Below the pieces are notes generated by a model. The model searched no databases and was not told the DNA's origin. It saw nothing but the letters and a program-made list of their open reading frames with translations. From positions 1 to 62,634 of the forward strand of contig JABIUA010000017.1 in assembly GCA_018667575.1 (NCBI GenBank): DNA of 62,634 bases. Direction: 5' to 3'. Positions 522-62,337 of the stretch are shown here, piece by piece (position 1 is the first letter of the stretch; each line of letters begins with the position of its first letter). This DNA is from Methanobacteriota archaeon (GTDB lineage: Archaea; Thermoplasmatota; Poseidoniia; Poseidoniales; Poseidoniaceae). The position numbers and the translations under genes were made by a program.

Positions 522-2465
522 TCATTCTTCTTGCTTTCTTAGAGCAAACGCAGCCCCTAGAAGAGTGACAGTCAGAGTTGCCATCAAAGAAACACCGGGT
601 AATCCTGAGCTTTCAGAATCTCCGTTATCACTGTCAGTTGTTGATTGCGAGTCGTCATCATTTGCATAAGGGTCCTTTACCATCACGCTAAGAGTGCTTA
701 TGACGCCAGATTCATCAGTTGCAGAGATTGTGACATCGTAATCAGTAATTCCTTGTTGAACACATGTAGCGATTGAAACATCGATTTCCCAGTTCTTTCC
801 AACTTTAGTGAAATCAGATGCCTGTGAGCCACACAATGCCAGTGAAAGAGTTACTGCTTCACCATCAGGGTCGATTACTTCACCTTTCAAAGTGAATTTC
901 AATCCACTGGCATCCCAAGTTCCATTCTTTCCTTCGAAGTTAACTTTAATTTCTAGGACAGGAGGTAAACTTACCTTTTCTAGACCGAAGTCTAGCATAA
1001 AGTCGAAATTCAACATATTGCTGTTTTGAGCGCTACCCATAACCATTACACTACCAGGTCTAAGTCCTTCCATAGGTAGTGATATTGTCACAGGTGCGTT
1101 GGTTATTGAAGCAGACCGCATGGTCCCCATTATCTGCATTTGATGCGCATGTGCTGCTACACTTAATTCACTTACCAGTCCGGTAGGAGTTACTGTGAAG
1201 TCAACATTTTCACCATCGGTAATTTCTGCAGTCGCAGTGAATGGCTGTCCAAATGTGAATGTGAGTGTATCATTGTTTTGAGCGCCAAATGGGTCCTTAA
1301 TTGCACATTCAGCAGTAGTTATAGCAGTTCCAGAAGGCGATGTTACTAGGAGGTCGCCATCTTGATTTTGTCTTGAAGACCAACCCACATCAGCGAATGT
1401 ACACTCTAGATTCCAACCATTTGTGTCGCTAGCCCATGTGCTAATTTCATCTCCTAATACAGCGGAGTATTCTCCACCATTCATTATTGGAATGATTGTA
1501 TTATCGCTTGGAGCAGCGCCAGTCCATTGTGGAATATCATTAGATTCTGGTGCATCAGTGGTGAAATCAATAAAGAGATTTCTTCCAATTGGCCAGTCCG
1601 CCTTATCATAGTTTACTTTTTGACTGACTCTTAGTCGTCCATCCGGAAGATAAATTTCTTCTGGTTCGAATGAACTTATCTCGACACCATCATCTCTCAT
1701 GCTAAAATTAGCAATTCTAAGGCCTTGAAGTACAGGGAAAGTTAGCATTAGCTCTGCATTTGTCATATTTGTTACATTTAATGCTAGAGTAAAGTTAGAG
1801 TCACCTTGGTTTGGTAGTTGATCGAATCTTAAATTATTAGATTCTCCATTTTTAACGAATAGTGAAATTTGGAGGTCGTCAGTAACACTAACTGGAACTT
1901 CTGTACAGTTGGATGATGCCAGTAGATTTTGACAGTTACGTTCTTCAGAGTTGCCCTCAGGTACTAAGTCAACTTCGTCTAGAGCAATTCCTTCTTCAAC
2001 AAATTCAAAGTCATTCCAATCAACACCACCACGGTGAGGTATTCCTTCACGGAGTCCGAGCCTTGTATCCATATCTTCAATACACTTTGGCCCAATTTCT
2101 CTTACTGCTTCTCTTTCATCGGTACTAATCCATGAGTTGTTTCCACCGGGTGCTCCATCGAAGAGTCCGTCGAGATTTTCTCTAACTGTTGCTGAGTTAC
2201 TTCCGTTGACATATGCTGTAGCGCTCATACTCGAAGTAGCCCAGTCATCTTCGATATCTATGTCGAATAGAGCAAAGTTATAGTCGAATAAGTCTTCAAA
2301 TGTTAAACCTGAACAATCAACATCATCCAGTTGTCTTCCGCTTGCTTCCATTACCTTCTTTTCGTCTAGTTGGGACTCTTCAGCCAGTGGCGTAAGGGTC
2401 ATCATAATCATCAAGATAATTAGTCCGATTGCGGTCGAATGTACAGTGAAACGGTTTCCTGCCAT
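522..2465 (-). CDS. Secreted surface protein with N-terminal signal anchor and PGF-CTERM-like C-terminal anchor
   Basis: 647 aa ORF. N-terminal hydrophobic stretch AIGLIILMIMMTLTPLA. Acidic Ser/Asp-rich linker, then ...SSGLPGVSLMATLTVTLLGAAFALRKQEE at the C-terminus. Many N-x-S/T sequons. Confidence 0.6.
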   Translation of the reverse strand: MAGNRFTVHSTAIGLIILMIMMTLTPLAEESQLDEKKVMEASGRQLDDVDCSGLTFEDLFDYNFALFDIDIEDDWATSSMSATAYVNGSNSATVRENLDGLFDGAPGGNNSWISTDEREAVREIGPKCIEDMDTRLGLREGIPHRGGVDWNDFEFVEEGIALDEVDLVPEGNSEERNCQNLLASSNCTEVPVSVTDDLQISLFVKNGESNNLRFDQLPNQGDSNFTLALNVTNMTNAELMLTFPVLQGLRIANFSMRDDGVEISSFEPEEIYLPDGRLRVSQKVNYDKADWPIGRNLFIDFTTDAPESNDIPQWTGAAPSDNTIIPIMNGGEYSAVLGDEISTWASDTNGWNLECTFADVGWSSRQNQDGDLLVTSPSGTAITTAECAIKDPFGAQNNDTLTFTFGQPFTATAEITDGENVDFTVTPTGLVSELSVAAHAHQMQIMGTMRSASITNAPVTISLPMEGLRPGSVMVMGSAQNSNMLNFDFMLDFGLEKVSLPPVLEIKVNFEGKNGTWDASGLKFTLKGEVIDPDGEAVTLSLALCGSQASDFTKVGKNWEIDVSIATCVQQGITDYDVTISATDESGVISTLSVMVKDPYANDDDSQSTTDSDNGDSESSGLPGVSLMATLTVTLLGAAFALRKQEE

Positions 2466-5940: not shown

Positions 5941-5960
5941 AGTTTTTAGGGCAACCAAAG

Positions 5961-5989: not shown

Positions 5990-6910
5990 ATGTCTAGTTG
6001 GTTGAAGAGGCTCCTAGCCGGGGTTTTGGTTGTATTGCTCATTGGAGGTAGCGCTTGGTATTTCTTAGTGTCCAATTATTCAGCAGAGTTGACCACAGAG
6101 AATGAAATTTTATCCGAGGATCACCCCGATAAGGTTTCAAATCAAACTTCTGATAACTTGCTCCAACTTTCATTTTCATATGGAGAAGATAACCTTGATT
6201 GGTCTAAGTTGGCTATGTCAGTTAGTGATGGTGTAAATACCTATGATTGTACTAAAAGCGGTCTTACCTCTAGTATAATTCATGATGGCGTCATACAAAC
6301 CAAACTAAACTCGGATGGTAATAGTTTTACGATTGAGGCCAACTCCGATTCAGATGATTTTGTATCCCTAAGTTTCTCCGATATGCAACAGACCAACGAT
6401 AGCAATTACAGTATCAGTTTTTCTAAAACTGACATATTTCTAGGAGAAAAGGTCTCCGGATATGTTTCAGATGAAGAATTTCAAAATGTAAATACGGTCC
6501 CTACTGGAGAGCCGACTGAATCATCCGATTCTAGATTAGAATGGTACGATTATGATATTTCAGTTCATCGAGTCATACCCAAGGAAATAACTTACATCGT
6601 GAACGAAAGTAATATTTTTTACAAAATACAATTCCTAAGTTACTATAATTCGAATGATGAATCACGGTATATTTCTTTTATTATTTCAACCATTGGAGAC
6701 GATGATTCTCCCGCTCTTAGTAACGAAGATTTGACTAAGGAGTCACATTGTATTATCTCTTCTACCAATGATACAGTTTGGAAATATGATGAAGTAATTT
6801 CACTATCCGAGAATAGTTTTGATATCTGTAGTATGTCTTGTTCGTTAGAAGTCCATGTTCGCTACCTAAACCAAGTAGTGAAAGGAATTAGTGAACTTGA
6901 AGTCGAGTGA
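5990..6910 (+). CDS. Hypothetical membrane-anchored extracellular protein
   Basis: 306 aa. N-terminal anchor LLAGVLVVLLIGGSAWYFLV, then a Ser/Asp/Asn-rich sequence. No family recognised. Confidence 0.5.
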   Translation: MSSWLKRLLAGVLVVLLIGGSAWYFLVSNYSAELTTENEILSEDHPDKVSNQTSDNLLQLSFSYGEDNLDWSKLAMSVSDGVNTYDCTKSGLTSSIIHDGVIQTKLNSDGNSFTIEANSDSDDFVSLSFSDMQQTNDSNYSISFSKTDIFLGEKVSGYVSDEEFQNVNTVPTGEPTESSDSRLEWYDYDISVHRVIPKEITYIVNESNIFYKIQFLSYYNSNDESRYISFIISTIGDDDSPALSNEDLTKESHCIISSTNDTVWKYDEVISLSENSFDICSMSCSLEVHVRYLNQVVKGISELEVE

Positions 6911-6992
6911 GGAAAGTGTATTTCTGATTTTTTAGGGGGGCCTAATAATTATATATCAGCCACTTTTCGGCCACCCTAAAAGAGTGATTAAA

Positions 6993-9200
6993 ATGTGGAA
7001 AACAAAACTTGCGAAATCGAGCCTAATGGTACTATTGATGTTGACAACAGCTATGGCTGGATGTATTGGTGGGGATGATGAATCATCTTCTTCAAGTGAT
7101 AACTGTACTGGCGATGAATTGAAAATCGCATATGAAATTAAAGAAGACCTGATTGATACTGAACTATCAAACCCCCAACAAATAGCGGATTATCTTTGTG
7201 AAAAGTTAGATATGGACGTATCTCTGTATGATGTTGGAAGTTCAGGAATTGCTATGGAAGCACTTCGTTTTGGAAATGCTGACATTGCCATGAATATCGA
7301 TGGCGGACCTGCTTGGGTTGGCTGGAATGCATATGGCCTAGATGTTATGGCTGCAGATACCAAAAGTGATGGTCGTGCTTACTATGATGCCCATGCTTGG
7401 GTCAAATCAGACTCTGATGTAGCAGCTGCCCATTTGGACAATGATGACTCAACCGATCCATTTTCTCTACTTTCTGGTAAGACTTCTTGTCACACTGGCT
7501 GGTTAAAGTCTGCTGGAATGTTGATGCCCATGGGTTATCTAATTGGCAATGGTTATGTCACAGTTCAGGGAGATATGTCGGATACTGAGACACTCAGAAC
7601 TACAATTAATGATTACTTTGATGGAAGTACGAGTTCTGGCAATCCTGCTTCGATTCCAGAAAGTGGAGCATTGTATTCAGGATATGACGGAGCAATTGAA
7701 TGCTTGAGTTCTGGATATGGAGATGTGGCTTTTGTAAAGGATTCGACACCAGGTTCATATTGTGCCAATGAAGATACTACACTGAATCAAGCATGGTGTT
7801 TAGATATGACTCAATATGTCGCATTACCGAAATTTGGTTCTTCTCCTAGTCACTCTGTTATGTACAACAGTGATGTACTTGCAGCAGATAAAGTGACTCT
7901 TATCCAAGATGCTCTTGTAGCGATGAAGGACGATTCAAGTGGTTTAGATATCCTAAGCAATGTACTAGGTACAGAAGCTATGATTTCTACAGACACGGAA
8001 ACTCACTTGGGAACCTACGGAGATGCGCTTCAAAACATCCCTGGTATTTCTAGTAAGTATGGAAATGCTTTCACAAATGGCTCTCAAACAGCTCCAATAA
8101 AATCTACAATTAATGTTGCATATTATTTGGCTGATGACGCAAGTGCAAATGCTGATGCTCAAGGTATGGCAGACAGACTCGCCTCTGACCTTGGAGTGAA
8201 TGTCAACTTGTATGACGTGTCCTCTGAAGGAATGATAATACAAGCTTTGAGGTTTGGAAATGCTGATATTGGATTTATGGAAGGTGGTCCAGCATGGATT
8301 GGTTGGAAGCAGTATGGTCTGTCGGTATTGGCGGTTGAAACAACCACAATGTACGGCGATACTCATTACAATGCCTCTGCATGGGTCCTAAATGGTTCAG
8401 ATATTGCGAATGCTCACTTAGATGGCGACGAATCAACGGACCCCTTCGCATTAATGGCTGGTAAAACTTCATGCCACACTGGATGGCTCAAATCCGCTGG
8501 GATGCTGATGCCTATGGGTTATCTCATCAAGAATGGTTACGTGACTGCAGTTGGCGACGACTCTGATATCAATTCCCTTCGCACAACAATAGACACTCAT
8601 TTCGATGGTTCAACAAGTAATGGAAACCCAGCATCAATACCTGATTCTGGTGCTTTATACTCTGGATATGGTGGAGCCATTGAGTGCTTAAGTGCTGGAT
8701 ATGGTGATGTAGCCTTTGCTAAAGGTGATGATTTTAGTACTCCTGAAAAGTATTGTGGAGATGACGATGCATCAGAAAATGAAGATTGGTGCCTTGCAAT
8801 GGATCAATACATCCAATTGCCATCATTTGGACAATCTCCAAGCCACCCTGTAATGTATAACCCAGATAAGTTAGATATCCATACTCGCAATGCAATTTTG
8901 AATGCAATGTTGAGTTGGAACGATGAAATGTGGATTGAGGACTACCCTATGGGCGGCCAAAATTATACTGGATGTTACAACATAGTGACCCACCAAGTTG
9001 CTGATATTCCTATGAATCAATGTGGTGGAGAGATTCTATCTTCAGTTACTTCTAAGGGTTATGGATTAAAAGCAGGAAACAGTCAAAATCATTTGGCTAG
9101 CTATTCCGACCTTTTAGGCTCGGTACCTGGACTTTCCGAATATTACCATTCTGCAGATAAGTACGGCATCACTGATGCTGAAACTTCTGAACAGGAATGA
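6993..9200 (+). CDS. Bilobal transferrin-like substrate-binding lipoprotein (PhnD/transferrin superfamily)
   Basis: Signal peptide plus lipobox LTTAMAGC. Two homologous ~330 aa lobes. Each carries FGNADI..(D/E)GGPAW, YYDAHAWV/HYNASAWV, GKTSCHTGWLKSAGMLMPMGYLI, LYSGY.GAIECLS.GYGDVAF.K and PSHSVMYN/PSHPVMYN. These parallel the serotransferrin motifs [56 protein letters not shown] and VPSHTVVAR. Confidence 0.75.
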   Translation: MWKTKLAKSSLMVLLMLTTAMAGCIGGDDESSSSSDNCTGDELKIAYEIKEDLIDTELSNPQQIADYLCEKLDMDVSLYDVGSSGIAMEALRFGNADIAMNIDGGPAWVGWNAYGLDVMAADTKSDGRAYYDAHAWVKSDSDVAAAHLDNDDSTDPFSLLSGKTSCHTGWLKSAGMLMPMGYLIGNGYVTVQGDMSDTETLRTTINDYFDGSTSSGNPASIPESGALYSGYDGAIECLSSGYGDVAFVKDSTPGSYCANEDTTLNQAWCLDMTQYVALPKFGSSPSHSVMYNSDVLAADKVTLIQDALVAMKDDSSGLDILSNVLGTEAMISTDTETHLGTYGDALQNIPGISSKYGNAFTNGSQTAPIKSTINVAYYLADDASANADAQGMADRLASDLGVNVNLYDVSSEGMIIQALRFGNADIGFMEGGPAWIGWKQYGLSVLAVETTTMYGDTHYNASAWVLNGSDIANAHLDGDESTDPFALMAGKTSCHTGWLKSAGMLMPMGYLIKNGYVTAVGDDSDINSLRTTIDTHFDGSTSNGNPASIPDSGALYSGYGGAIECLSAGYGDVAFAKGDDFSTPEKYCGDDDASENEDWCLAMDQYIQLPSFGQSPSHPVMYNPDKLDIHTRNAILNAMLSWNDEMWIEDYPMGGQNYTGCYNIVTHQVADIPMNQCGGEILSSVTSKGYGLKAGNSQNHLASYSDLLGSVPGLSEYYHSADKYGITDAETSEQE

Positions 9201-9297
9201 CCTGCTTGCTCTAAATAGAATAATTCTACGGAGTCATGGTGTTGGTTGCTTGGTAGTCGAAAATCCCCCCTCCCGAGGCGGTGATAATGTTCAAAAG

Positions 9298-9966
9298 TTG
9301 GACTCTGAAAGTATCACTCTTAGAGGTCTAACTGTTGGCTATGATGAGGCATTGGTCCTTGATATCAACAAGACAATATATCCCGGAGATACAATAGCAA
9401 TATTGGGTGCTTCAGGTATTGGAAAAACCACTTTGATGAGAACTATTGCCGGTTTAATTCGGCCATTATCGGGGGAGATTTTTCACGATTATCCTAGGAG
9501 AGGAGGAATTGGCTACATTCCTCAAAGATTAGGCCTAGTTAGACATTCTTCAGTTCGAAGTAATATTACTTTAGGCGCAAGAACGAGGAGATCAAAATGG
9601 TACCCATCGTGGTATCCTCTTGATAGTTCTCTAAAGGAAGACGTAGATAACGCAATGAAGGCATTGAAAATTGAAGATATTGCTGATGAGCCAGTTAGAA
9701 TTCTTTCCGGTGGTCAGCAAAGACGTGTGGCAATAGCAAGAACCCTTGTCCAAAGACCTAGAATAATACTTGCAGATGAGTTCTTAGGAGAACTGGATAA
9801 AGACAATGTAAAATCTATAATTACAGCAACTAAGAAAATAGTTGATGAAATTGGGGCCACATTAGTATTGATAGAGCATCACGAAGAGAGGGCTATTGAA
9901 ATCGCTGATAGAATTTGGAGAATAGTTGATAAAAAATTGATTGAAGAAGGTGATTCCAATCAATAA
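9298..9966 (+). CDS. phnC: ABC transporter ATP-binding protein, PhnC-like
   Basis: Walker A GASGIGKTT, signature LSGGQQRRV, Walker B ILADEFLGELD, H-loop IEHH. The ORF is open from 9175, but that stretch overlaps the preceding gene. An in-frame TTG at 9298 sits 13 nt downstream of gaggcggtga. The start is uncertain. Confidence 0.8.
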   Translation: MDSESITLRGLTVGYDEALVLDINKTIYPGDTIAILGASGIGKTTLMRTIAGLIRPLSGEIFHDYPRRGGIGYIPQRLGLVRHSSVRSNITLGARTRRSKWYPSWYPLDSSLKEDVDNAMKALKIEDIADEPVRILSGGQQRRVAIARTLVQRPRIILADEFLGELDKDNVKSIITATKKIVDEIGATLVLIEHHEERAIEIADRIWRIVDKKLIEEGDSNQ

Positions 9967-10882
9967 GAAATTAATTTTCTCAGGAATCTTATTGATTCTC
10001 ATCGCTTGGGTATTTATAGATGATTTAGTAGATGATTGGGGTCAGGTAGAAGGAGCTCCTGAGAAGTTGCAGACGTTTTTCACAGAAGATCTACTACCTC
10101 CAGATTGGTCAGTTTTAGAGGCTGAAGAGTGGTCTGATGGTTCATTACACAAACCCAATGGGGATATTTGTGATGAAAATTTTGAATTATTTTGTTCCAA
10201 GGCATGGACTGGAATGGTAGTGACAATTAAGATGGCTTTTGTTGCTACACTCGTGGGGTTTTTCTTTTCCATTCCACTCGCATCTTTAGCGGCAACAAAT
10301 ATGGCTCCACTTCCTATTGCAATACCCGCAAGAGTTGTACTTGCAGGACTTAGAAGCCTCCCAAGTATAATATGGGCTTTATTATTTGCAATTGCTTTAG
10401 GTTTTGGACCATTACCAGGAATTCTAGCAATGACGTTGTATACTATTGGTTACTTAGGAAAATTACAGTATGAAGCAATGGAAGGAGTTCATAATGCACC
10501 TTTAGAGTCTGGAATGGCAATGGGTCTTACTCATTCTGAACAATTATTCCATGTTGTAATTCCTGAGTCGAGTAATCATTTACTCAGTCAATTACTGTTT
10601 ATGTTCGAGTATAACGTAAGGCACGGAGCAGTGCTTGGATTAGTTGGTGCAGGCGGAATAGGAATGTATATCGACAATTACATCAATCCTCCATTTGATT
10701 ATAATAAGGCATTTGCATTACTAATTGTAGTATTCGTTGTAGTCGTAATTATTGATTTAATCTCTATGATGATTCGTTCCTTTGTTACCGAAGAAGGAGA
10801 TGTCAAGAGGCCTAAATGGTGGAGCGTAATATTACCACCTTCCATGGCAGTTGAAATGTACTCTGAATCAGAGGAAGAGTGA
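9941..10882 (+). CDS. phnE: ABC transporter permease, PhnE-like
   Basis: 313 aa. YEAMEGV..PLESGMAMGL...FHVVIPES and the GLVGAGGIG motif are typical of PhnE-family permeases. The start (TTG 9941 or GTG 9950) overlaps the ATPase gene end. Confidence 0.8.
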   Translation: MKKVIPINKKLIFSGILLILIAWVFIDDLVDDWGQVEGAPEKLQTFFTEDLLPPDWSVLEAEEWSDGSLHKPNGDICDENFELFCSKAWTGMVVTIKMAFVATLVGFFFSIPLASLAATNMAPLPIAIPARVVLAGLRSLPSIIWALLFAIALGFGPLPGILAMTLYTIGYLGKLQYEAMEGVHNAPLESGMAMGLTHSEQLFHVVIPESSNHLLSQLLFMFEYNVRHGAVLGLVGAGGIGMYIDNYINPPFDYNKAFALLIVVFVVVVIIDLISMMIRSFVTEEGDVKRPKWWSVILPPSMAVEMYSESEEE

Positions 10883-10885
10883 AAA

Positions 10886-11146
10886 TTATTCTGCAGCAAT
10901 ATGCAGAGTTCCTTCTTTGTAGAATACTTGAATTCGGTCAGGGACCTTCTTTGTTAAGGCAGCCACTGCTTCATATATTTCGTCTTTTTTTACCTTGAAC
11001 GCCTTTGCAGCATCAGAGGTTGACCAAGGCATTGTGTGGAAATCAGATTGTCTAATCCATTCGAATAAGCGTGCCTCCAGTTCGCTTAACTCCTCCGCCA
11101 TGTGAGTGGGGATGTAGTTCCCCCTCAAAATAACACCGACTGTCAA
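10886..11146 (-). CDS. Small hypothetical protein, possibly winged-helix
   Basis: 86 aa from a TTG start, or 71 aa from the ATG at 11101. The segment STSDAAKAFKVKKDEIYEAVAALTKK looks like an HTH. No family recognised. Confidence 0.4.
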   Translation of the reverse strand: MTVGVILRGNYIPTHMAEELSELEARLFEWIRQSDFHTMPWSTSDAAKAFKVKKDEIYEAVAALTKKVPDRIQVFYKEGTLHIAAE

Positions 11147-28321: not shown

Positions 28322-28939
28322 ATGAACCGGTCACTCCCTAATGTGATTATGGCCGCTAGTATTCCAGCAATTATCATTGCGGCGGGGCTAAGTAAAAGAT
28401 TAGGCCGTCCCAAGGCCTTTGTCGAAATTGCAGGTAAGACACTGCTGCAGCACTCTATTTCTAAACTACAATCATTAAATTGTAATCCAATTATCATAGT
28501 TACTAATCAAGACTGCTTATTTCAGGCCACTGTGGAATCGAATGGTGCCAAAGTTTGTTTGAATAATAATCCGGATGACGGTAGGACTGGGACAATTCAG
28601 ATCGGTTTATCTGACTTAATCGATGAGATGGGTAGAATGCCTAGAAAGTTGATTTTAGCTCCTGTGGATAGGCCCGGTTGGAAGTCAGAAAGTATAGTCA
28701 AATTATTCGAATCAAACACCAGTTCTTGCCTATCTTCAAATGGCACTAGTGGCCACCCTGTAGTCCTAGTAAACAATGACTTACACAAAATTTTGATGGC
28801 TGATAAAACCACACCGCTTAGAGATATCATTTCCTTTGAAAAAGTTCTAGTCGATGAACCATTACTCGGGCTGAATATTGATACAGAAGAAGACTTAGAA
28901 TTACTCCAATCACATTCAGAATTCTTTGAAGCGCTTTAA
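28322..28939 (+). CDS. MobA-like NTP transferase (molybdenum cofactor cytidylyl/guanylyltransferase, MocA-like)
   Basis: IIIAAGLSKRLGRPKAFVEIAGKTLLQH nucleotide-binding motif. 205 aa. Confidence 0.7.
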   Translation: MNRSLPNVIMAASIPAIIIAAGLSKRLGRPKAFVEIAGKTLLQHSISKLQSLNCNPIIIVTNQDCLFQATVESNGAKVCLNNNPDDGRTGTIQIGLSDLIDEMGRMPRKLILAPVDRPGWKSESIVKLFESNTSSCLSSNGTSGHPVVLVNNDLHKILMADKTTPLRDIISFEKVLVDEPLLGLNIDTEEDLELLQSHSEFFEAL

Positions 28940-28976
28940 TCACAAAAAGTATGTGTGAAGAACTCTAGCCCTAACC

Positions 28977-29843
28977 ATGACAGCAACCGTTCTACGCTGG
29001 GCGCTAAAGTGTCTAGAGAGGCGTAAAGCGGTAGTCATAGCAACTGTGATTGAAACAACGGGTAGCGTTCCAGGTAAAGTAGGAGCCAGAATCGCTATGA
29101 GTGAATCAGGTAATGCTTGGGTTGGTACTGTTGGTGGAGCAGGCCTTGAGATGAAGGTACTAAATCGCTGTAGAGAATTAATTAATGATACTTCAAAACC
29201 CTATGGGGAGGTCAAAACCTTCGGACTTAACAAAGGGGCGAAGGGCTATGAAGTACAACCACTTGATTCATTATGCGGGGGCAAAGTTACTTTGTCTCTG
29301 GAGGTAATGATTCCGATGCCACACATTCTTTTAATCGGTGGAGGACACTGTGCTCAAGCTTTAGCACAGAGTATTGACTTACTCGGATGGACATTCTCAG
29401 TTCACGACACTCGCAAGGAATTTTGTAATAGCGAATTATATCCTTCAGCAGATAAATTATATCACTTGGAAGTTTCAGAATTCCTCAAATCAATTGAAGG
29501 TGAAGATGCCTCAGAGTTTTCAGATATTCTTTTGCTTGGCCATGATTGGAGTGAAGACCAAAATAGATTACTCGGTCTATTAGAACTGTATTCTAATCAG
29601 AATTTAGAATTAGACGGCTCCTTAGCGCCTCGAATAGGGGTGATTGGAAGCCGTTCGAAATGGCAAGAATTTGAAAAGCAAGGTCTCGCTAAAGGAATCA
29701 GTCAAGAAATCTTGGATAGTGTAATTTGCCCAATTGGTCTGAATATCGGCGCCCAATCTCCTGAGGAGATAGCAATAGCAGTACTTGCTCAAATAATGTC
29801 AAATTTCAAGAATATCGATCCTGACAAACCTAGTTGGAGATAA
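28977..29843 (+). CDS. XdhC/CoxI-family molybdoenzyme maturation protein
   Basis: ATVIETTGSVPGKVGARIAM N-terminal domain and Rossmann-like LIGGGHCAQALA. Confidence 0.75.
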   Translation: MTATVLRWALKCLERRKAVVIATVIETTGSVPGKVGARIAMSESGNAWVGTVGGAGLEMKVLNRCRELINDTSKPYGEVKTFGLNKGAKGYEVQPLDSLCGGKVTLSLEVMIPMPHILLIGGGHCAQALAQSIDLLGWTFSVHDTRKEFCNSELYPSADKLYHLEVSEFLKSIEGEDASEFSDILLLGHDWSEDQNRLLGLLELYSNQNLELDGSLAPRIGVIGSRSKWQEFEKQGLAKGISQEILDSVICPIGLNIGAQSPEEIAIAVLAQIMSNFKNIDPDKPSWR

Positions 29844-29844
29844 T

Positions 29845-30384
29845 TCATTTGAACACTTTACTTCTAAAGTAATCTAACTCTTCCACAGATTCAATGATAT
29901 CATCGAGAGCCAAATGTGCTCCTTTCTTAGGATACTTATCCACTTCAGGGTACCATCTTCTTGCTAATTCTTTGACGGTTGAAACATCAATCATCCGGTA
30001 GTGTAAATATTCTGCAACCAGAGGCATTTCTTTTTCCAAGAATCTTCTATCATTCCATACACTATTTCCACATAGAGGTGCAGTATTAGGGTCGACCCAT
30101 TCCTTCAAGAAATCAAGTGTCATATTTTCCGCTTCCGATAAATCCACCCCTTGTTCCCTAATTCTCTTTACCAGTCCACTATCGAAATGATGGGTAGTGT
30201 TCCACTCATCCATTCCTTCAATCAGAGATTCATCTACAGTTATTGCCACATTAGGCCCATGTGCAAGTATATTCAATTCACCGTCAGTAATAATTGTTGC
30301 AATCTCGATGATGGATTCCTTTTCAATATCCAATCCAGTCATCTCAAGGTCAATCCAAACCATACGCTGTTCCCTATCTGCCAT
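29845..30384 (-). CDS. orn: Oligoribonuclease (DEDDh 3'-5' exoribonuclease)
   Basis: Near-colinear with E. coli Orn over its full length: VWIDLEMTGLD..IIEIATIITD, CGNSV..DRRFL, DVSTVKELARRW, H..LDDIIESV. Confidence 0.9.
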   Translation of the reverse strand: MADREQRMVWIDLEMTGLDIEKESIIEIATIITDGELNILAHGPNVAITVDESLIEGMDEWNTTHHFDSGLVKRIREQGVDLSEAENMTLDFLKEWVDPNTAPLCGNSVWNDRRFLEKEMPLVAEYLHYRMIDVSTVKELARRWYPEVDKYPKKGAHLALDDIIESVEELDYFRSKVFK

Positions 30385-30454
30385 ATACTATCCAAATACT
30401 ATTGACATTTCAAATGGGCGTAGTGTTGATGTATTACCCCATAGAGGAGACATC

Positions 30455-31789
30455 ATGTCCGAGGTTTTGGAGGCTGAGTTGATGCCAGCGGCCAGTAATG
30501 CCAAAATGGCTATTGCTATTTCGATAGCACTTCTTATTTTAGGTGCCATTTTTGTTGTTCTAAGCAATAACGAAGAAGTCTCCCAAGAGGTTGAACAACA
30601 GTCCAGCATCGAGCAAGGTTGGCGTCCTTTTTCTGTTATTGCCCCAATCGATACAGGAATTAACGTTTATCATGACCACTTTAGAACCAATGAAACATAC
30701 CCAGACTGGTTACTTGACGAACTTGGGGTCAACAAAGTCTGTGATTTGACATTCAATGGTTCATGGCAAGAGCGATATGACGCAGATAGGTCATCTTGTT
30801 GGGATTCTTTGAACGCTTCAGATATTGTATATTTCCCTGGTACTAAGATTATCGGTGCATCTCCAGATGGAGACAGTGAGATATTAATTTTGGATGACCC
30901 AAGTGACGGTCACGGCTCTGCAGTGACCGGTGCTGTACTAAATGCTAATCCTAATGCAGTTATTTTCTTTGTCGAAGGTTTCAGTTCTGAAGCGGTTTTA
31001 GCCGCTGCTAACCAACCGCTTGTCGATGTGATAACAACATCCTTCGGCGCCATCGGTTCAATTCCTGTTCCAGGAATTGAAGATGCTACCAAGGTAGCGG
31101 TCACAGAGAAAAACAAGTTGCATACTGGGGCTGCAGATAATTCACCGTCCCCAGCAGTTCAAGACGCTACTGCAGGACCGCCTTGGTCTATTGGAATTGC
31201 AGGCTATGCTGAAGAAGGTGATGACCAAAAAGAGATTATGTCGGGTTCTTATCCAGATATTTCTGCAGATTGGACTCAAGTACTACCCAATCACGATGAT
31301 ATCGACGGTTATCATGAAACATCAGGTACATCCTTCGCAACTCCTCGAACTGCCGGCTTAATTTCGTTCGTACTAGAGAATTTGAGAGAAGAGTTTGGAG
31401 ATTCTGGCTCAGGTGCTTCTGGCGATAGAGATGGTTTTCTGGTTAATGGAAATAATATGACTATCTCAAATTCACAAGTTCGAGAAGCACTCAATCTTTC
31501 TGCTTGGTATCCAAACCTAGGCTGGGACCCTACTTCGGGAACTATGCCAATCTCTCCAGTTCTACCTTGTACACAAACCGGATGGGGATTGGTGAATCTA
31601 TCTAATGTTGAACCGATGATAAAGCATCTTAACGGGACTGAAAGTTTATCTCAGAGGGCGGCAGACGTAGTCGCTTGTATGCAGGTTAATCAAGATGCGA
31701 GAGAAGCATATTGGGGTGCTTACCCTAGTCTTGAAATAGCAAGTGAATATTCTGTTTTTGGGGCTGAAGGAACATTGATTAGGGATTAA
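30455..31789 (+). CDS. Membrane-anchored subtilisin-like serine protease (S8 family)
   Basis: Catalytic triad motifs IDTGINV (Asp), DGHGSAVTG (His) and SGTSFATPRTAG (Ser). N-terminal anchor IAISIALLILGAIFVVL. The track ORF from 30197 is an antisense read-through of orn, and the ATG at 30455 is the plausible start. Confidence 0.75.
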   Translation: MSEVLEAELMPAASNAKMAIAISIALLILGAIFVVLSNNEEVSQEVEQQSSIEQGWRPFSVIAPIDTGINVYHDHFRTNETYPDWLLDELGVNKVCDLTFNGSWQERYDADRSSCWDSLNASDIVYFPGTKIIGASPDGDSEILILDDPSDGHGSAVTGAVLNANPNAVIFFVEGFSSEAVLAAANQPLVDVITTSFGAIGSIPVPGIEDATKVAVTEKNKLHTGAADNSPSPAVQDATAGPPWSIGIAGYAEEGDDQKEIMSGSYPDISADWTQVLPNHDDIDGYHETSGTSFATPRTAGLISFVLENLREEFGDSGSGASGDRDGFLVNGNNMTISNSQVREALNLSAWYPNLGWDPTSGTMPISPVLPCTQTGWGLVNLSNVEPMIKHLNGTESLSQRAADVVACMQVNQDAREAYWGAYPSLEIASEYSVFGAEGTLIRD

Positions 31790-35662: not shown

Positions 35663-36265
35663 ATGGTAGGCACTGAATATGTTTCAATGACCCCTAAAGC
35701 GGCTAAAGAAATTTGGTCTGCAAAGGTCAACGGTGAGTCTGTTGAAGAACTGATTACCTCTAATGCTATCCTACTTGATGTGTTGAGAGACCAAGTTGGA
35801 ACTCTTGGAGTCAAGAGGGGATGTGACTTGGGAACTTGCGGTTGCTGTACAGTTATTATCGACGGTGATGCTAGACTATCTTGCTTATGTCTTGCTGGTC
35901 AAGTATCAGATAGTGAAATCACAACAGTTGAAGGTCTTTCAGAAGGCGCTCACTTGGCTCCTATTCAAACATGTTTTGCAGAGCATGGAGGTTCACAGTG
36001 TGGTTTTTGTACTCCTGGGTTTTTACTCAGTGCCCAAGCATTACTGGAAGAAAACGACTCCCCCACCGATGAAGAAATTTCATGTGCCATTGAAGGTAAT
36101 TTGTGCCGTTGTACTGGATACCAACAAATCGTAGATTCAATAAAGGCTGCAGCAGAGATACATAGAGGTGAATCAGAACCTGTTCCGCCAGCAAGTAACC
36201 CTCATCCTAATCCACATCCCGATGGTCCTGAAGAACCATCAATGCCTCCAGGTCATGCAAGGTGA
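35663..36265 (+). CDS. [2Fe-2S]-binding small subunit of a xanthine dehydrogenase/CO dehydrogenase-family molybdoenzyme
   Basis: GCDLGTCGCCTV, CGFCTPGF and CRCTGYQ cluster motifs. Pro/His-rich tail NPHPNPHPDGPEEP. Confidence 0.9.
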   Translation: MVGTEYVSMTPKAAKEIWSAKVNGESVEELITSNAILLDVLRDQVGTLGVKRGCDLGTCGCCTVIIDGDARLSCLCLAGQVSDSEITTVEGLSEGAHLAPIQTCFAEHGGSQCGFCTPGFLLSAQALLEENDSPTDEEISCAIEGNLCRCTGYQQIVDSIKAAAEIHRGESEPVPPASNPHPNPHPDGPEEPSMPPGHAR

Positions 36266-36269
36266 TTTT

Positions 36270-39074: not shown

Positions 39075-40042
39075 TGCTAATGCCTCCGTTTATCCTACAT
39101 CATCCAAGTTCGGTTGAAGAGGCTTGTAGTATTGCTTCTGAATTGATTGAGAGGGGTGAAGACTTTGATTGGGTCTCGGGTGGTACTGATTTATTGGCCA
39201 ATTATAAATGGCGAATTAATACTAAACCAAATGTCATCTCTTTATCCAAGATACCAGGTATTGATACCGTTTCAGATTTAGAAATTGGATGCATGGCTCG
39301 ATTATCAAATTTAGAAGGTTCAAATGTACATCCAATGATCGCTGAGGCAGCTGGAAAAGTCGCTTCATCATTAATTCGTAAAAGCGCAACTTTGGGAGGT
39401 AATCTCTGCCTTGATACCAGATGCTTTTGGTATAACCAAAGCGAGGACTGGCGTCGCTCGATTGAATGGTGTCATAAAGCAGATTGTGGGACTGGTGCGG
39501 ACTGTCGAGTGATTCCAAATCAAAACACTTTGTGTGTAGCTACTTACCAAGGCGATATAGCGCCTGTTTTGATGGTACTCGGTGCTTCTGTACACTTGAT
39601 TGGTCCTAACGGTGAAAGAGTAATTCCGTTGTCCGAATTTTATCAGTTAGATGGAATGAAGAAGAACGTACTTGAGAATGGCGAATTTTTACTCAAAGTA
39701 TCTCTTCCAGAGGATTCTCTAAGCAGAGTAGGCTCATATCAGAAGTTGAGGGTTAGAGACTCATGGGACTTCCCGGAAGCAGGTGTTGCCGCATCATGGA
39801 TTGAAGGAGATAGAAGTTCAATAAAGGTGGCCACAACTGCTCTTGAATCAATTCCAAGAATCCACACAGAGGAAGTGAGTCAAATTATTGAGCAAGGGTG
39901 GGATGATGAGAAGTCTGTAAAATCCTTGGCAGGTGTAATTAGAAAAAGTGTTAAGCCAGTGAACAACACTGCTTTACCCCCTAATTATCGTCGCTCAGTG
40001 GTACGAGTTTTGATAAAAAGAGCATTTTCACAAATGAAATGA
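39074..40042 (+). CDS. FAD-binding medium subunit of the molybdoenzyme, with a Cys-rich insertion
   Basis: GGTDLL FAD motif. TAATG stop/start overlap with the large subunit. Insertion CLDTRCFWYNQSEDWRRSIEWCHKADCGTGADCRVIPNQNTLC (Cys112/117/133/138/144/154). Confidence 0.85.
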   Translation: MLMPPFILHHPSSVEEACSIASELIERGEDFDWVSGGTDLLANYKWRINTKPNVISLSKIPGIDTVSDLEIGCMARLSNLEGSNVHPMIAEAAGKVASSLIRKSATLGGNLCLDTRCFWYNQSEDWRRSIEWCHKADCGTGADCRVIPNQNTLCVATYQGDIAPVLMVLGASVHLIGPNGERVIPLSEFYQLDGMKKNVLENGEFLLKVSLPEDSLSRVGSYQKLRVRDSWDFPEAGVAASWIEGDRSSIKVATTALESIPRIHTEEVSQIIEQGWDDEKSVKSLAGVIRKSVKPVNNTALPPNYRRSVVRVLIKRAFSQMK

Positions 40043-43976: not shown

Positions 43977-44000
43977 GAGAAATTTCAGGAGTTTTAGCCT

Positions 44001-62214: not shown

Positions 62215-62337
62215 GCACCTTCCTCTCATTGAACATTCAAAGACTCATCGCTTCCATTTGACAAAAAGTGGCAAAAATCATACCCAATCATGTATGTCAA
62301 TCGGTAACCTCTTGAATCACTCTCACTTACCACTAAC

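What the first reader, a model, noticed from the sequence alone, without database searches (positions are those of the whole stretch)
6993..10882. Two-lobed transferrin-like lipoprotein genetically coupled to a PhnC/PhnE-type ABC importer in an archaeon
Seen in sequence: the 735 aa product has a lipobox (MAGC) and two homologous lobes. Each lobe reproduces, in order, the motifs that define eukaryotic transferrin lobes.
- NADIAMNIDGGPAW parallels [12 protein letters not shown], which holds the Asp ligand.
- AYYDAHAWVK parallels [10 protein letters not shown], which holds the first Tyr ligand.
- GKTSCHTGWLKSAGMLMPMGYLI parallels [21 protein letters not shown], which holds the Thr/Arg carbonate site at a helix N-terminus.
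- LYSGYDGAIECLSSGYGDVAFVKD parallels [20 protein letters not shown], which holds the second Tyr ligand.
- SPSHSVMYN parallels VPSHTVVAR, which holds the His ligand.

The next two genes are a PhnC-like ATPase and a PhnE-like permease (GAGGIG motif).

Established knowledge: bilobal transferrins are regarded as eukaryotic. It has been proposed that transferrins and phytotransferrins descend from PhnD-type periplasmic binding proteins.

Inference: this could be a prokaryotic bilobal transferrin acting as the receptor of an Fe(III) or Fe(III)-anion ABC importer, or an intermediate form between PhnD and transferrin. Either would be unusual for an archaeon living in iron-poor surface ocean.
Basis: partly seen in the sequence, partly recalled or inferred. 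Interest (0 to 1): 0.85.

Follow-up and report, generated by a model that had tools for sequence, protein, structure and literature searches.

The report
Archaeal two-lobed transferrin on ABC importer
A marine archaeon makes a membrane-anchored, two-lobed protein with every hallmark of animal transferrin. It feeds an ABC importer so far read as a "phosphonate transporter", so the system is probably a ferric-iron uptake system and these proteins are the closest prokaryotic relatives of transferrin.

Summary
Window 6993-9200 encodes a 735-aa lipoprotein made of two lobes that are 52% identical. A PhnC-like ATPase and a PhnE-type permease follow it.

**Transferrin signature.** Both lobes pass Pfam Transferrin, and the best solved-structure sequence matches are all eukaryotic transferrins. 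Both lobes keep the Asp/Glu, Tyr, Tyr and His iron ligands, the Thr-x3-Lys anion site and the SCHTG/xCL cysteine pair. These are near-invariant in 120 homologues. They fail NCBI's PhnD models.

**Distribution.** The family is widespread in Thermoplasmatota, above all Marine Group II, as one-, two- and three-lobed forms. The SBP-ATPase-permease order is conserved.

**Link to iron.** One-lobed relatives outside Marine Group II sit next to DtxR-family metalloregulator genes. The promoter carries a palindrome, TTAGG-N4-CCTAA, that is about 840-fold enriched there and matches the DtxR box.

**Phylogeny.** A rough tree groups eukaryotic transferrin lobes in one clade whose nearest prokaryotic relatives are these archaeal proteins. 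The archaeal lobe duplication is independent of the eukaryotic ones.

**Best reading.** This is an Fe(III) (plus anion) binding receptor of an ABC importer, and the published "phosphonate transport" label is probably wrong. Iron binding is inferred, not shown.

The parts
6932..6945 (+). Operator-like palindrome TTAGGGGGGCCTAA (TTAGG-N4-CCTAA), directly upstream of the TATA-like box
   Evidence: It is the only perfect match in the 62.6-kb window. The same palindrome occurs 102 times in the promoter zones of related loci and 4 times in the other 906 kb. It matches positions 1-14 of the DtxR consensus TTAGGTTAGCCTAACCTAA (PMC7762939).
6947..6956 (+). TATA-like box AATTATATAT (inferred archaeal promoter element)
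   Evidence: Read directly from the sequence. An A/T-rich box follows the first palindrome in most related loci. This is an inference; no transcript data.
6966..6979 (+). Second palindrome copy TTCGGCCACCCTAA (one mismatch), between the TATA-like box and the start codon
   Evidence: A second copy just before the start codon is the rule in related loci.
6993..9200 (+). Two-lobed transferrin-like substrate-binding lipoprotein, 735 aa. Signal peptide and lipobox are residues 1-24 (Cys24 = 7062-7064), followed by an acidic Ser-rich linker.
   Evidence: Pfam Transferrin 96.2 bits and Phosphonate-bd 97.7 bits.
7101..8087 (+). Lobe 1 (residues about 37-365), with D103, Y131, SCHTG (C166, T168), K172, Y231, C237, C257, C269 and H287
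   Evidence: AF2 lobe model pLDDT 91.7. Foldseek finds transferrin lobes and apo PtxB at E about 1e-14.
8088..9164 (+). Lobe 2 (residues about 366-724), with E430, Y459, T496, K500, Y559 and H618. It has a lobe-2-specific beta-hairpin insert with invariant C661 and C677.
   Evidence: Across 120 homologues the Asp/Glu position in lobe 2 is D in 90 and E in 30.
9175..9966 (+). ABC transporter ATPase. The start is uncertain: homologues are about 229 aa, so the true start is probably near 9277.
   Evidence: Pfam ABC_tran 102.9 bits. Best NCBIfam match is PhnC at 125.7 bits, below its cut-off of 266.1. It follows the binding-protein gene in nearly every related locus.
9941..10882 (+). PhnE-type ABC permease (a single gene, presumably a homodimer)
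   Evidence: TIGR01097 PhnE 224.3 bits, cut-off 216.7. Pfam BPD_transp_1. Its position is conserved.
10886..11146 (-). Conserved small ORF (core of about 70 aa), convergent with the permease gene; a possible winged-helix DNA-binding protein. Whether it belongs to the system is uncertain.
   Evidence: Homologues lie at the same position in 41 Marine Group II-type loci. The only family hit is weak: PF0610-like_N, E 0.066.

Best explanation
The gene at 6993-9200 encodes a lipid-anchored, extracellular, two-lobed member of the transferrin family.

**Proposed mechanism.**
- Each lobe is a complete hinged binding domain. It binds one Fe(III) through Asp/Glu, two tyrosinates and His.
- A synergistic oxyanion (carbonate, or possibly phosphate) sits on the Thr-x3-Lys site at the N-terminus of the SCHTG helix.
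- The loaded lobe docks on a homodimeric PhnE-type permease. A homodimeric PhnC-like ATPase powers the import of iron.
- A metal-responsive repressor probably switches the operon off when iron is plentiful. It would bind two TTAGG-N4-CCTAA palindromes that flank the TATA box and cover the transcription start region.

**What is shown.** Homology to transferrins, conservation of the ligands and cysteines, the operon structure and its conservation, the DtxR genes next to relatives, and the promoter-specific palindrome.

**What is inferred.** Fe(III) as the substrate, the identity of the anion, passage of iron through a PhnE-type permease, the identity of the repressor in Marine Group II, and the archaeal ancestry of eukaryotic transferrins.
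For: **Family placement.**
- Pfam Transferrin is well above its cut-off for the whole protein and for each lobe.
- The 60 best PDB sequence hits are all eukaryotic transferrins.
- The 50 best Foldseek hits of the full-length model are all transferrins.
- A profile search of 1.84 billion representatives returned only 575 proteins. The best 150 were archaeal relatives and eukaryotic transferrins, with only five PhnD-like 'TSG' proteins among them.

**Binding site.**
- D/E, Y, T, K, Y, H and four Cys are about 100% conserved in both lobes of 120 homologues. They are invariant in a 15-sequence alignment that goes down to 54% identity.
- Lys at the 'Arg' position is also the commonest state in eukaryotic lobes: 61 K against 26 R.
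- Paralogues that lost these residues lost several at once, as expected for a single functional site.

**Not PhnD.**
- TIGR03431 scores 31.9 against a cut-off of 261.1; TIGR01098 scores 61.1 against 112.05.
- E. coli PhnD scores 28.6 bits on the lobe profile.
- No phosphonate catabolism gene is found among the window's 51 ORFs of 150 aa or more.

**Link to metal.**
- DtxR-family genes lie directly next to the SBP-ATPase-permease operon in 16 non-redundant Thermoplasmatota loci. These belong to several clusters that are less than 50% identical to each other.
- The palindrome TT[AC]GG-N4-CC[TG]AA has 102 hits in 27 kb of promoter zones and 4 hits in 906 kb elsewhere.
- The only perfect copy in the window is at 6932-6945.
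- The motif equals positions 1-14 of the DtxR consensus. Locus L027 carries a near-complete 19-bp DtxR box.
- A three-lobed relative sits beside a Peripla_BP_2/FecCD/ABC iron-chelate-type importer.

**Operon conservation.**
Against: - No biochemical or expression data exist, so Fe(III) binding is inferred from conserved residues only.
- The permease passes NCBI's PhnE equivalog cut-off, and the best ATPase match is PhnC. No PhnE-type system is known to carry iron.
- Pfam Phosphonate-bd scores as well as Transferrin.
- The confident lobe model matches apo PtxB as well as it matches transferrin lobes, so the fold does not discriminate.
- PhnD-like 'TSG' proteins (for example from Nitrosopumilus) also keep the D, Y, Y, H columns. 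That tetrad alone may therefore not be specific for iron.
- No DtxR gene lies in the window or within 6 kb of any Marine Group II locus. Short DtxR-family proteins are often Mn sensors; JGI names them Mn-dependent.
Confidence: 0.65

Rival explanations
1. It is what current annotation says: the binding protein of a phosphonate, phosphite or phosphate ABC importer (PhnCDE-like). The transferrin-like residues would hydrogen-bond an oxyanion rather than ligate a metal.
For: - Pfam Phosphonate-bd scores 97.7 bits and covers almost the whole model.
- The permease passes the TIGR01097 PhnE cut-off, and the best ATPase match is PhnC.
- Apo PtxB is a top structural match, with TM-score 0.81 normalised to the target length.
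- JGI and NCBI names, and Tully 2019, list 'transport of phosphonates' as a core trait of Marine Group II.
Against: - The specific PhnD and phosphonate-family NCBIfam models fail by a wide margin.
- The Ser/Thr-rich anion motif of PhnD-type proteins is replaced by the transferrin SCHTG...K motif with its cysteine pair.
- The regulators next to relatives are DtxR-family metal sensors, not a phosphate-starvation type, and the promoter motif resembles the DtxR box.
- No C-P lyase, phosphonatase or phosphite dehydrogenase genes are in the window.
Confidence: 0.12
2. It is a metal-uptake receptor, but for another hard cation or a metal complex: Mn(II/III), Al, Ti(IV), V, or an Fe-organic chelate. 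Free Fe(III) with carbonate would not be the substrate.
For: - The neighbouring regulators in most linked loci are the short, roughly 140-aa DtxR form. JGI names these 'Mn-dependent'.
- Transferrin sites are known to accept many hard cations. PDB entries among the hits hold Ti, Cr, Yb, Bi, Al and Cu.
- Lobe 2 of the window clade has Glu in place of Asp.
Against: - The Asp/Tyr/Tyr/His set plus the anion site is the classic Fe(III) set. It is conserved exactly as in iron-binding transferrins, whereas Mn(II) binding proteins use softer His/Asp/Glu sets (established knowledge).
- One relative's regulator (P0160 locus) is the long IdeR-like form with a FeoA/SH3 domain.
- Locus L027 has a near-consensus DtxR/IdeR iron box.
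Confidence: 0.13
3. The archaeal genes are a recent capture of a eukaryotic transferrin (from algae or protists that Marine Group II feeds on). They would act in iron sequestration or competition at the cell surface rather than in transport.
For: - The archaeal profile scores very highly on ichthyosporean and green-algal multi-lobed transferrins: Chromosphaera 627 bits, Bryopsis 310 bits.
- The branching order of the archaeal groups and eukaryotes is unresolved, with 27% bootstrap.
Against: - The gene is the first cistron of a conserved SBP-ATPase-permease operon in one-lobed and two-lobed forms across divergent Thermoplasmatota.
- Eukaryotic lobes form one clade (75% bootstrap), while archaeal monophyly gets 5%. 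This fits archaeal paraphyly better than a recent import.
- A eukaryotic gene would have had to land exactly in the binding-protein slot of the transporter family from which transferrins are thought to derive.
- Archaeal lipobox and archaeal promoter elements are present.
Confidence: 0.05

Closest known systems
Eukaryotic transferrins (Pfam PF00405), especially the multi-lobed transferrins of ichthyosporeans (Chromosphaera, Creolimax, Amoebidium, Ichthyophonus) and green algae (Bryopsis, Caulerpa), then animal sero-, lacto- and melanotransferrins
   Same: - The lobe fold is the same.
- The Asp, Tyr, Tyr and His ligand columns are shared.
- The Thr plus Lys/Arg anion site on the SCHTG helix is shared.
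- The SCHTG/xCL cysteine pair is shared.
- Lobes are repeated in tandem.
- The Pfam model is passed, and transferrins are the top sequence and structure hits.
   Different: - It is an archaeal lipoprotein encoded as the first gene of an ABC-importer operon. It is not a secreted glycoprotein taken up by a receptor and endocytosis.
- It has about 4 Cys per lobe rather than the many disulfides of animal forms.
- Its lobe duplication is independent.
- Lobe 2 of the window clade has Glu for Asp.
PhnD-family binding proteins (E. coli PhnD; phosphite-binding PtxB, PDB 5o2k; arsenite-binding AioX) with PhnC/PhnE transporters (TC 3.A.1.9)
   Same: - The class II binding-protein fold is the same; the TM-score with apo PtxB is 0.65 normalised to the query and 0.81 normalised to the target.
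- The broad Pfam Phosphonate-bd model is passed.
- The gene order is the same, with a PhnE-type permease and a PhnC-like ATPase.
- The first Tyr column and the Thr at the helix N-terminus are shared with E. coli PhnD.
   Different: - It fails the TIGR03431 and TIGR01098 cut-offs. E. coli PhnD scores only 28.6 bits on the lobe profile.
- It has SCHTG...K and a cysteine pair in place of the Ser/Thr-rich motif.
- It has two lobes.
- Its regulatory context is DtxR-type rather than phosphate starvation.
FbpA/FutA/SfuA 'bacterial transferrins' of Fe(III) ABC importers (TC 3.A.1.10)
   Same: The proposed job is the same: a binding protein that holds one Fe(III) with two Tyr, a His, a carboxylate and a synergistic anion, and hands it to an ABC importer (established knowledge).
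   Different: No detectable sequence relationship: no FbpA-type Pfam or NCBIfam hit for the binding protein. The permease family differs, and FbpA-type proteins have a single lobe.
Phytotransferrin ISIP2a of diatoms
   Same: It is a marine, surface-anchored Fe(III)-carbonate binding protein. Like transferrin, it is reported to derive from phosphonate-binding periplasmic proteins (McQuaid 2018, as summarised in PMC7676907).
   Different: ISIP2a is a eukaryotic protein that works through endocytosis and is not a PF00405 member. It was not compared directly here.
Tandem substrate-binding domains on ABC importers (for example GlnPQ of Lactococcus)
   Same: Two complete binding domains in one polypeptide serve one importer (established knowledge).
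   Different: In GlnPQ the domains are fused to the permease. Here they form a separate lipoprotein.

Membership tests
Transferrin family (Pfam PF00405) | Matches the family profile above the curated cut-off | tested here: met
   96.2 bits against a cut-off of 20.3. Lobe 1 scores 59.6 and lobe 2 scores 46.5. The best PDB sequence hits are all transferrins.
Transferrin family (Pfam PF00405) | Four iron ligands (Asp, Tyr, Tyr, His) at the aligned positions in a lobe | tested here: met
   Lobe 1 has D103, Y131, Y231, H287; lobe 2 has E430, Y459, Y559, H618. They are about 100% conserved in 120 homologues.
Transferrin family (Pfam PF00405) | Synergistic-anion site: Thr and Arg/Lys at the N-terminus of the helix that follows SCHTG | tested here: met
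   T168/K172 and T496/K500 are invariant. Lys is also the majority state in eukaryotic lobes, 61 K against 26 R.
Transferrin family (Pfam PF00405) | Conserved cysteine pair (SCHTG Cys with xCL Cys) | tested here: met
   C166 and C237 are present in 31 of 31 archaeal lobes. C166 is present in 101 of 101 eukaryotic lobes and C237 in 82 of 101. Both are absent from PhnD-like proteins. Formation of the disulfide bond itself was not testable.
Transferrin family (Pfam PF00405) | Ligand side chains converge on one site; reversible Fe(III) binding with carbonate | not testable with these tools
   Model coordinates are not exposed, so no distances could be measured. No biochemistry is available.
Transferrin family (Pfam PF00405) | Bilobal architecture from the ancestral N/C-lobe duplication of animal transferrins | tested here: not met
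   The protein is two-lobed. However, both lobes fall inside the Marine Group II clade together with one-lobed Marine Group II forms (77% bootstrap), so the duplication is separate. The tree is a rough neighbour-joining tree.
PhnD phosphonate-binding proteins (TIGR03431, TIGR01098) | Matches the NCBIfam models above their cut-offs | tested here: not met
   TIGR03431 scores 31.9 against 261.1; TIGR01098 scores 61.1 against 112.05. The broad Pfam PF12974 model is passed at 97.7 bits.
PhnD phosphonate-binding proteins (TIGR03431, TIGR01098) | Encoded with PhnC and PhnE | tested here: met
   The permease passes TIGR01097 at 224.3 bits against 216.7. The ATPase's best match is PhnC, but below the cut-off (125.7 against 266.1).
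PhnD phosphonate-binding proteins (TIGR03431, TIGR01098) | Ser/Thr-rich phosphonate-binding motif at the helix N-terminus | tested here: not met
   E. coli PhnD and the 'TSG'-type relatives carry TSG-like motifs without Cys, His or Lys. This family has SCHTG...K.
PhnD phosphonate-binding proteins (TIGR03431, TIGR01098) | Linked phosphonate or phosphite catabolism genes | tested here: not met
   None is found among the 51 ORFs of 150 aa or more in the 62.6-kb window. The rest of the genome was not seen.
FbpA-type Fe(III) binding proteins | Sequence membership in the FbpA/SfuA/FutA family | tested here: not met
   No such Pfam or NCBIfam hit for the binding protein.
DtxR/IdeR-type metal regulon | Operator resembling the DtxR box in the promoter | tested here: met
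   TTAGG-N4-CCTAA at 6932-6945 and a one-mismatch copy at 6966-6979. The motif is about 840-fold enriched in the promoters of the family. Consensus taken from PMC7762939. Binding was not tested.
DtxR/IdeR-type metal regulon | DtxR-family regulator encoded with the operon | tested here: inconclusive
   Present next to 16 non-redundant one-lobed Thermoplasmatota loci. Absent from the window and from within 6 kb of Marine Group II loci. Marine Group II loci carry a small, possibly winged-helix ORF instead.

The most novel reading that the evidence does not exclude
Eukaryotic transferrins descend from this Thermoplasmatota lineage of iron-binding ABC receptors. The route would be PhnD-like protein, then archaeal one-lobed transferrin-type binding protein, then transfer into an early eukaryote (holozoan or alga), with lobes multiplying independently in each domain. 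In addition, the 'phosphonate transporter' counted as a core trait of Marine Group II would in fact be the main Fe(III) uptake system of the most abundant surface-ocean archaea.
Probability: 0.35. Interest if true: 0.9.

Novelty: new variant of a known kind. Interest (0 to 1): 0.8.

Why it matters
**Evolution.** Transferrin is a textbook eukaryotic iron carrier, and its prokaryotic origin has been traced only loosely to PhnD-like proteins. These archaeal proteins already carry the full transferrin site and still sit in the ancestral ABC-importer operon. That makes the step from binding protein to transferrin concrete and testable.

**Ocean ecology.** The locus type is published as 'phosphonate transport' in the core genome of Marine Group II (PMC6336850). 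If it imports iron, phosphorus and iron budgets inferred from these genes in metagenomes are mis-assigned. It would also identify an iron-acquisition route in a very abundant, uncultured archaeal group.

**Transport.** It would be the first iron substrate for a PhnE-type transporter, and it offers a natural two-lobed ABC receptor for mechanistic study.

Tried and rejected
- **Literature.** Nine searches found no paper on archaeal or prokaryotic PF00405 transferrins. The first two were polluted because 'transferrin' also matched 'transferring'. McQuaid 2018 is not held, so its claim is cited only through a review.
- **Full-length structure.** The AF2 model was mediocre (pLDDT 70.4), with low confidence at the anion helices. 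Whole-protein TM-scores to transferrins were low (0.25-0.36) because the lobe arrangement differs.
- **Lobe structure.** The lobe-1 model was good (pLDDT 91.7). Foldseek nevertheless ranked apo PtxB level with transferrin lobes, so the fold cannot separate the two readings. Ligand distances could not be measured because coordinates are not returned.
- **Locus search.** The search for related loci with a 9-sequence alignment failed because no stretch was conserved enough. A 6-sequence alignment worked, but it used one peptide pattern (KSAGM[FIL]MP), so relatives lacking that motif, bacterial ones included, would be missed.
- **Regulator search.** A homologue search with the DtxR-like neighbour returned only close Thermoplasmatota relatives and no named Poseidoniales. 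It therefore did not show whether Marine Group II has this regulator.
- **Phylogeny.** No maximum-likelihood tree program was available. The tree is neighbour-joining on Kimura distances with 100 bootstraps, and deep branching is unresolved.
- **Eukaryote-to-archaeon capture.** I considered and set aside the idea that the protein is a recent eukaryotic import (see rivals).
- **ISIP2a and FbpA.** Neither was compared directly by sequence.

Full report
**1. What is there**

The window holds an ORF at 6984/6993..9200 on the + strand. Homologue N-termini and the sequence upstream favour ATG 6993 as the start. That gives a 735-aa product beginning MWKTKLAKSSLMVLLMLTTAMAGC.
- Gly23-Cys24 of the lipobox are invariant in 15 homologues. 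An acidic, Ser-rich linker follows.
- The rest is two homologous lobes that are 52% identical (E 9e-114).
- Downstream, with overlapping or abutting frames, lie an ABC ATPase (9175..9966) and a permease (9941..10882).
- The permease passes NCBI's PhnE model (224.3 bits, cut-off 216.7). The ATPase's best match is PhnC, below its cut-off.

**2. Which family**

Pfam gives two nearly equal hits: Phosphonate-bd (97.7 bits) and Transferrin (96.2 bits, cut-off 20.3). Each lobe alone passes both models. The more specific tests all point one way:
- NCBI's PhnD equivalog and the phosphate/phosphite/phosphonate subfamily model both fail (31.9 against 261.1; 61.1 against 112.05).
- A phmmer search of all PDB sequences returns only eukaryotic lactoferrins, ovotransferrins, serotransferrins and melanotransferrin among the best 60 (best E 1.7e-20).
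- A profile of 15 homologues searched against 1.84 billion representatives finds only 575 proteins at E up to 0.001. The best 150 are archaeal relatives and eukaryotic transferrins.
- A single-lobe profile gives about 100 bits to each lobe of animal transferrins and 28.6 bits to E. coli PhnD.

Structure does not discriminate.
- The full-length model (pLDDT 70.4) hits only transferrins in the top 50.
- The confident lobe-1 model (pLDDT 91.7, pTM 0.88) matches apo transferrin lobes and apo PtxB equally well, both at E about 1e-14.
- The model is in the open form.

**3. The binding site**

The PDB alignments place the residues on the lactoferrin ligands as follows (lactoferrin numbering from the published sequence as I recall it):

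| Role | Window, lobe 1 | Window, lobe 2 | Lactoferrin |
|---|---|---|---|
| Asp ligand | D103 | E430 | D60 / D395 |
| First Tyr ligand | Y131 | Y459 | Y92 |
| Anion-site Thr | T168 | T496 | T117 |
| Anion-site Arg | K172 | K500 | R121 |
| Second Tyr ligand | Y231 | Y559 | Y192 |
| His ligand | H287 | H618 | H253 |

- Across 120 homologues these columns are 99-100% conserved in both lobes. In lobe 2 the first column is Asp in 90 and Glu in 30.
- Lys at the 'Arg' position is also the majority state among eukaryotic lobes, 61 K against 26 R.
- The Cys of SCHTG and the Cys of the xCL motif after the second Tyr are present in all 31 archaeal lobes examined. In eukaryotic lobes the first is in 101 of 101 and the second in 82 of 101. 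Both are absent from PhnD-like proteins.
- Several Marine Group II paralogue clusters (P0122, P0123, P0125, P0127, P0128) have lost several of these residues together. Non-iron-binding transferrin homologues of animals show the same pattern.
- I could not measure side-chain distances, because model coordinates are not returned.

**4. Distribution and context**

- The 120 best-scoring homologues listed are two-lobed proteins, with P0029 (1156 aa, apparently three-lobed) the exception. Those that carry names come from Marine Group II MAGs: Thalassarchaeaceae, Poseidonia, 'Euryarchaeota'.
- The closest named genome is 'Thermoplasmatota archaeon XS_MAG42', at 82% identity.
- A scan of 185,579 species genomes with one family peptide found 128 relatives. 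The 80 listed are Thermoplasmatota or generically labelled archaeal MAGs, apart from three labelled 'uncultured bacterium'.
- One-lobed (317-358 aa), two-lobed and three-lobed (P0029, 1156 aa) forms exist.
- The order SBP-ATPase-PhnE-type permease holds in nearly every locus with downstream sequence. The wider synteny of the window is kept at 55% protein identity.
- Tully 2019 lists 'the transport of phosphonates' as part of the Marine Group II core genome. That is how this locus type is currently read.

**5. Evidence for a metal role**

- One-lobed relatives from three separate clusters, each below 50% identity to the others, have a DtxR-family gene directly beside the operon (Fe_dep_repress plus Fe_dep_repr_C; one also has a FeoA domain).
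- A scan of all fetched loci found this in 16 non-redundant Thermoplasmatota loci outside Marine Group II. It found none within 6 kb in Marine Group II loci, and none in the window.
- Upstream regions show a palindrome, usually in two copies. One abuts the TATA-like box and the other lies just before the start codon.
- The pattern TT[AC]GG-N4-CC[TG]AA occurs 102 times in 27 kb of promoter zones (67 of 91 loci) and 4 times in the other 906 kb. That is about 840-fold enrichment.
- In the window the only perfect copy in 62.6 kb is at 6932-6945, next to AATTATATAT. A one-mismatch copy is at 6966-6979, 14 bases before the ATG.
- The published DtxR consensus TTAGGTTAGCCTAACCTAA (PMC7762939) starts with TTAGG-N4-CCTAA. 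Locus L027 has TTAGGTTAGCCTAACTCAA.
- DtxR-linked loci use the TTCGG/CCGAA variant. Marine Group II loci use TTAGG/CCTAA.
- Marine Group II loci carry a conserved ORF of about 70 aa convergent with the permease (window 10886-11146, 41 loci). It has only a weak winged-helix hint. Which protein binds the palindrome in Marine Group II is open.
- A three-lobed relative lies beside a Peripla_BP_2/FecCD/ABC importer.
- No phosphonate catabolism gene is in the window.

**6. Relationship to eukaryotic transferrins**

- The eukaryotic proteins that score highest on the archaeal profile are multi-lobed proteins from unicellular relatives of animals and from green algae. They include Chromosphaera (1894 aa, 5 lobes, 627 bits), 'Clim' (1524 aa), Amoebidium, Creolimax, Ichthyophonus, Sphaeroforma, Abeoforma, Bryopsis (7 lobes) and Caulerpa. 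Animal proteins follow.
- I built a neighbour-joining tree of 77 lobes (268 columns, 100 bootstraps), rooted on PhnD-like 'TSG' proteins:

| Grouping | Bootstrap |
|---|---|
| Outgroup split | 98% |
| Eukaryotic lobes as one clade | 75% |
| Marine Group II clade (both lobes plus one-lobed Marine Group II forms) | 77% |
| Monophyly of all archaeal sequences | 5% |
| Eukaryotes as sister to one archaeal group | 27% |

- The archaeal lobe duplication is therefore independent of the eukaryotic ones. These archaeal proteins are the nearest prokaryotic relatives of transferrins.
- Archaeal paraphyly, which would mean an archaeal origin of transferrin, is suggested but not established.
- Many lobes were assumed to be eukaryotic without a name check. 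No maximum-likelihood method was available.

**7. Conclusion**

The most likely mechanism is an Fe(III)-plus-anion receptor with two independent binding lobes. It would feed a PhnE/PhnC-type ABC importer under metal-dependent repression. I put this at about 0.65.

The main rivals are:
- a true oxyanion (phosphonate or phosphite) receptor, about 0.12;
- a receptor for a different metal, about 0.13;
- a recent eukaryotic import with a non-transport role, about 0.05.

I found no publication describing archaeal PF00405 transferrins. Automated names ('PhnD/SsuA/transferrin family', and once 'melanoma-associated antigen p97') show that annotation pipelines detected the similarity without interpreting it.

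Noticed in passing
window 10886-11146 (-): A small conserved ORF (core of about 70 aa, pattern ...EFExRLxxWIxxSDFxxVPWSTxRAAxAFxV...) lies convergent with the permease gene. It is found at the same place in 41 Marine Group II-type loci and never in the DtxR-linked loci. The only family hit is a weak winged-helix one (PF0610-like_N, E 0.066). It may be the local regulator.
   Followed up: partly
window 5946-5959 and ORF 5990-6910 (+): A one-mismatch copy of the promoter palindrome (TTAGGGCAACCAAA) lies upstream of the gene just before the binding-protein gene. Its 306-aa membrane-anchored product has a sub-threshold hit to the haem-binding HmuY family (E 0.0037, 17.8 bits against a cut-off of 27).
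   Followed up: no
L004 2018-5488 and 5786-11114 (Tara metagenome contig): A three-lobed relative (P0029, 1156 aa) has no PhnC/PhnE genes after it. It is followed by a 793-aa CarboxypepD_reg-like protein and a Peripla_BP_2/FecCD/ABC_tran iron-chelate-type importer.
   Followed up: partly
proteins P0122, P0123, P0125, P0127, P0128 (Marine Group II paralogue clusters): These two-lobed paralogues have one or both lobes that lost several of the Asp/Tyr/Thr/Lys/Tyr/His positions together while keeping the cysteines. They probably no longer bind the same ligand.
   Followed up: partly
protein cluster P0135/P0272-P0285 (Poseidoniales, 396-409 aa, 185 members): This one-lobed paralogue has a C-terminal transmembrane anchor instead of relying only on a lipobox. 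Its anion-site motif is changed (CHTS...G, with no Lys).
   Followed up: no
proteins P0238, P0246, P0228, P0205, P0250 (P0238 from Nitrosopumilus): These PhnD-like proteins have a TSG-type anion motif and no cysteine pair, yet they keep Asp, Tyr, Tyr and His at the transferrin ligand columns. The tetrad may therefore predate the SCHTG motif. Their ligand is unknown.
   Followed up: no
window about 8916-9050 (lobe 2 residues about 642-686): Lobe 2 has a beta-hairpin insert with two invariant cysteines (C661, C677) that lobe 1 lacks. In homologue P0028 the insert is expanded by about 70 residues with repeated Cys-containing units.
   Followed up: no
proteins P0124, P0129, P0140, P0152, P0181, P0185: Giant eukaryotic proteins carry 4 to 9 transferrin-like lobes or half-lobes: Chromosphaera 1894 aa, Bryopsis 2619 aa, Branchiostoma 2661 aa, and unnamed proteins of 2056 and 2283 aa. 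Most lobes keep the full ligand set.
   Followed up: partly
window 28322-29843 and 35663-40042 (+): A molybdenum hydroxylase cluster (2Fe-2S subunit, molybdopterin-binding large subunit, FAD subunit) sits with XdhC and MobA-like maturation genes nearby. A MoxR AAA ATPase plus DUF58 pair lies at 42798-45314.
   Followed up: no
window 522-2465 (-), 30197-31789 (+), 59245-62229 (-): Three large ORFs (647, 530 and 994 aa) have no Pfam match at the thresholds used.
   Followed up: no
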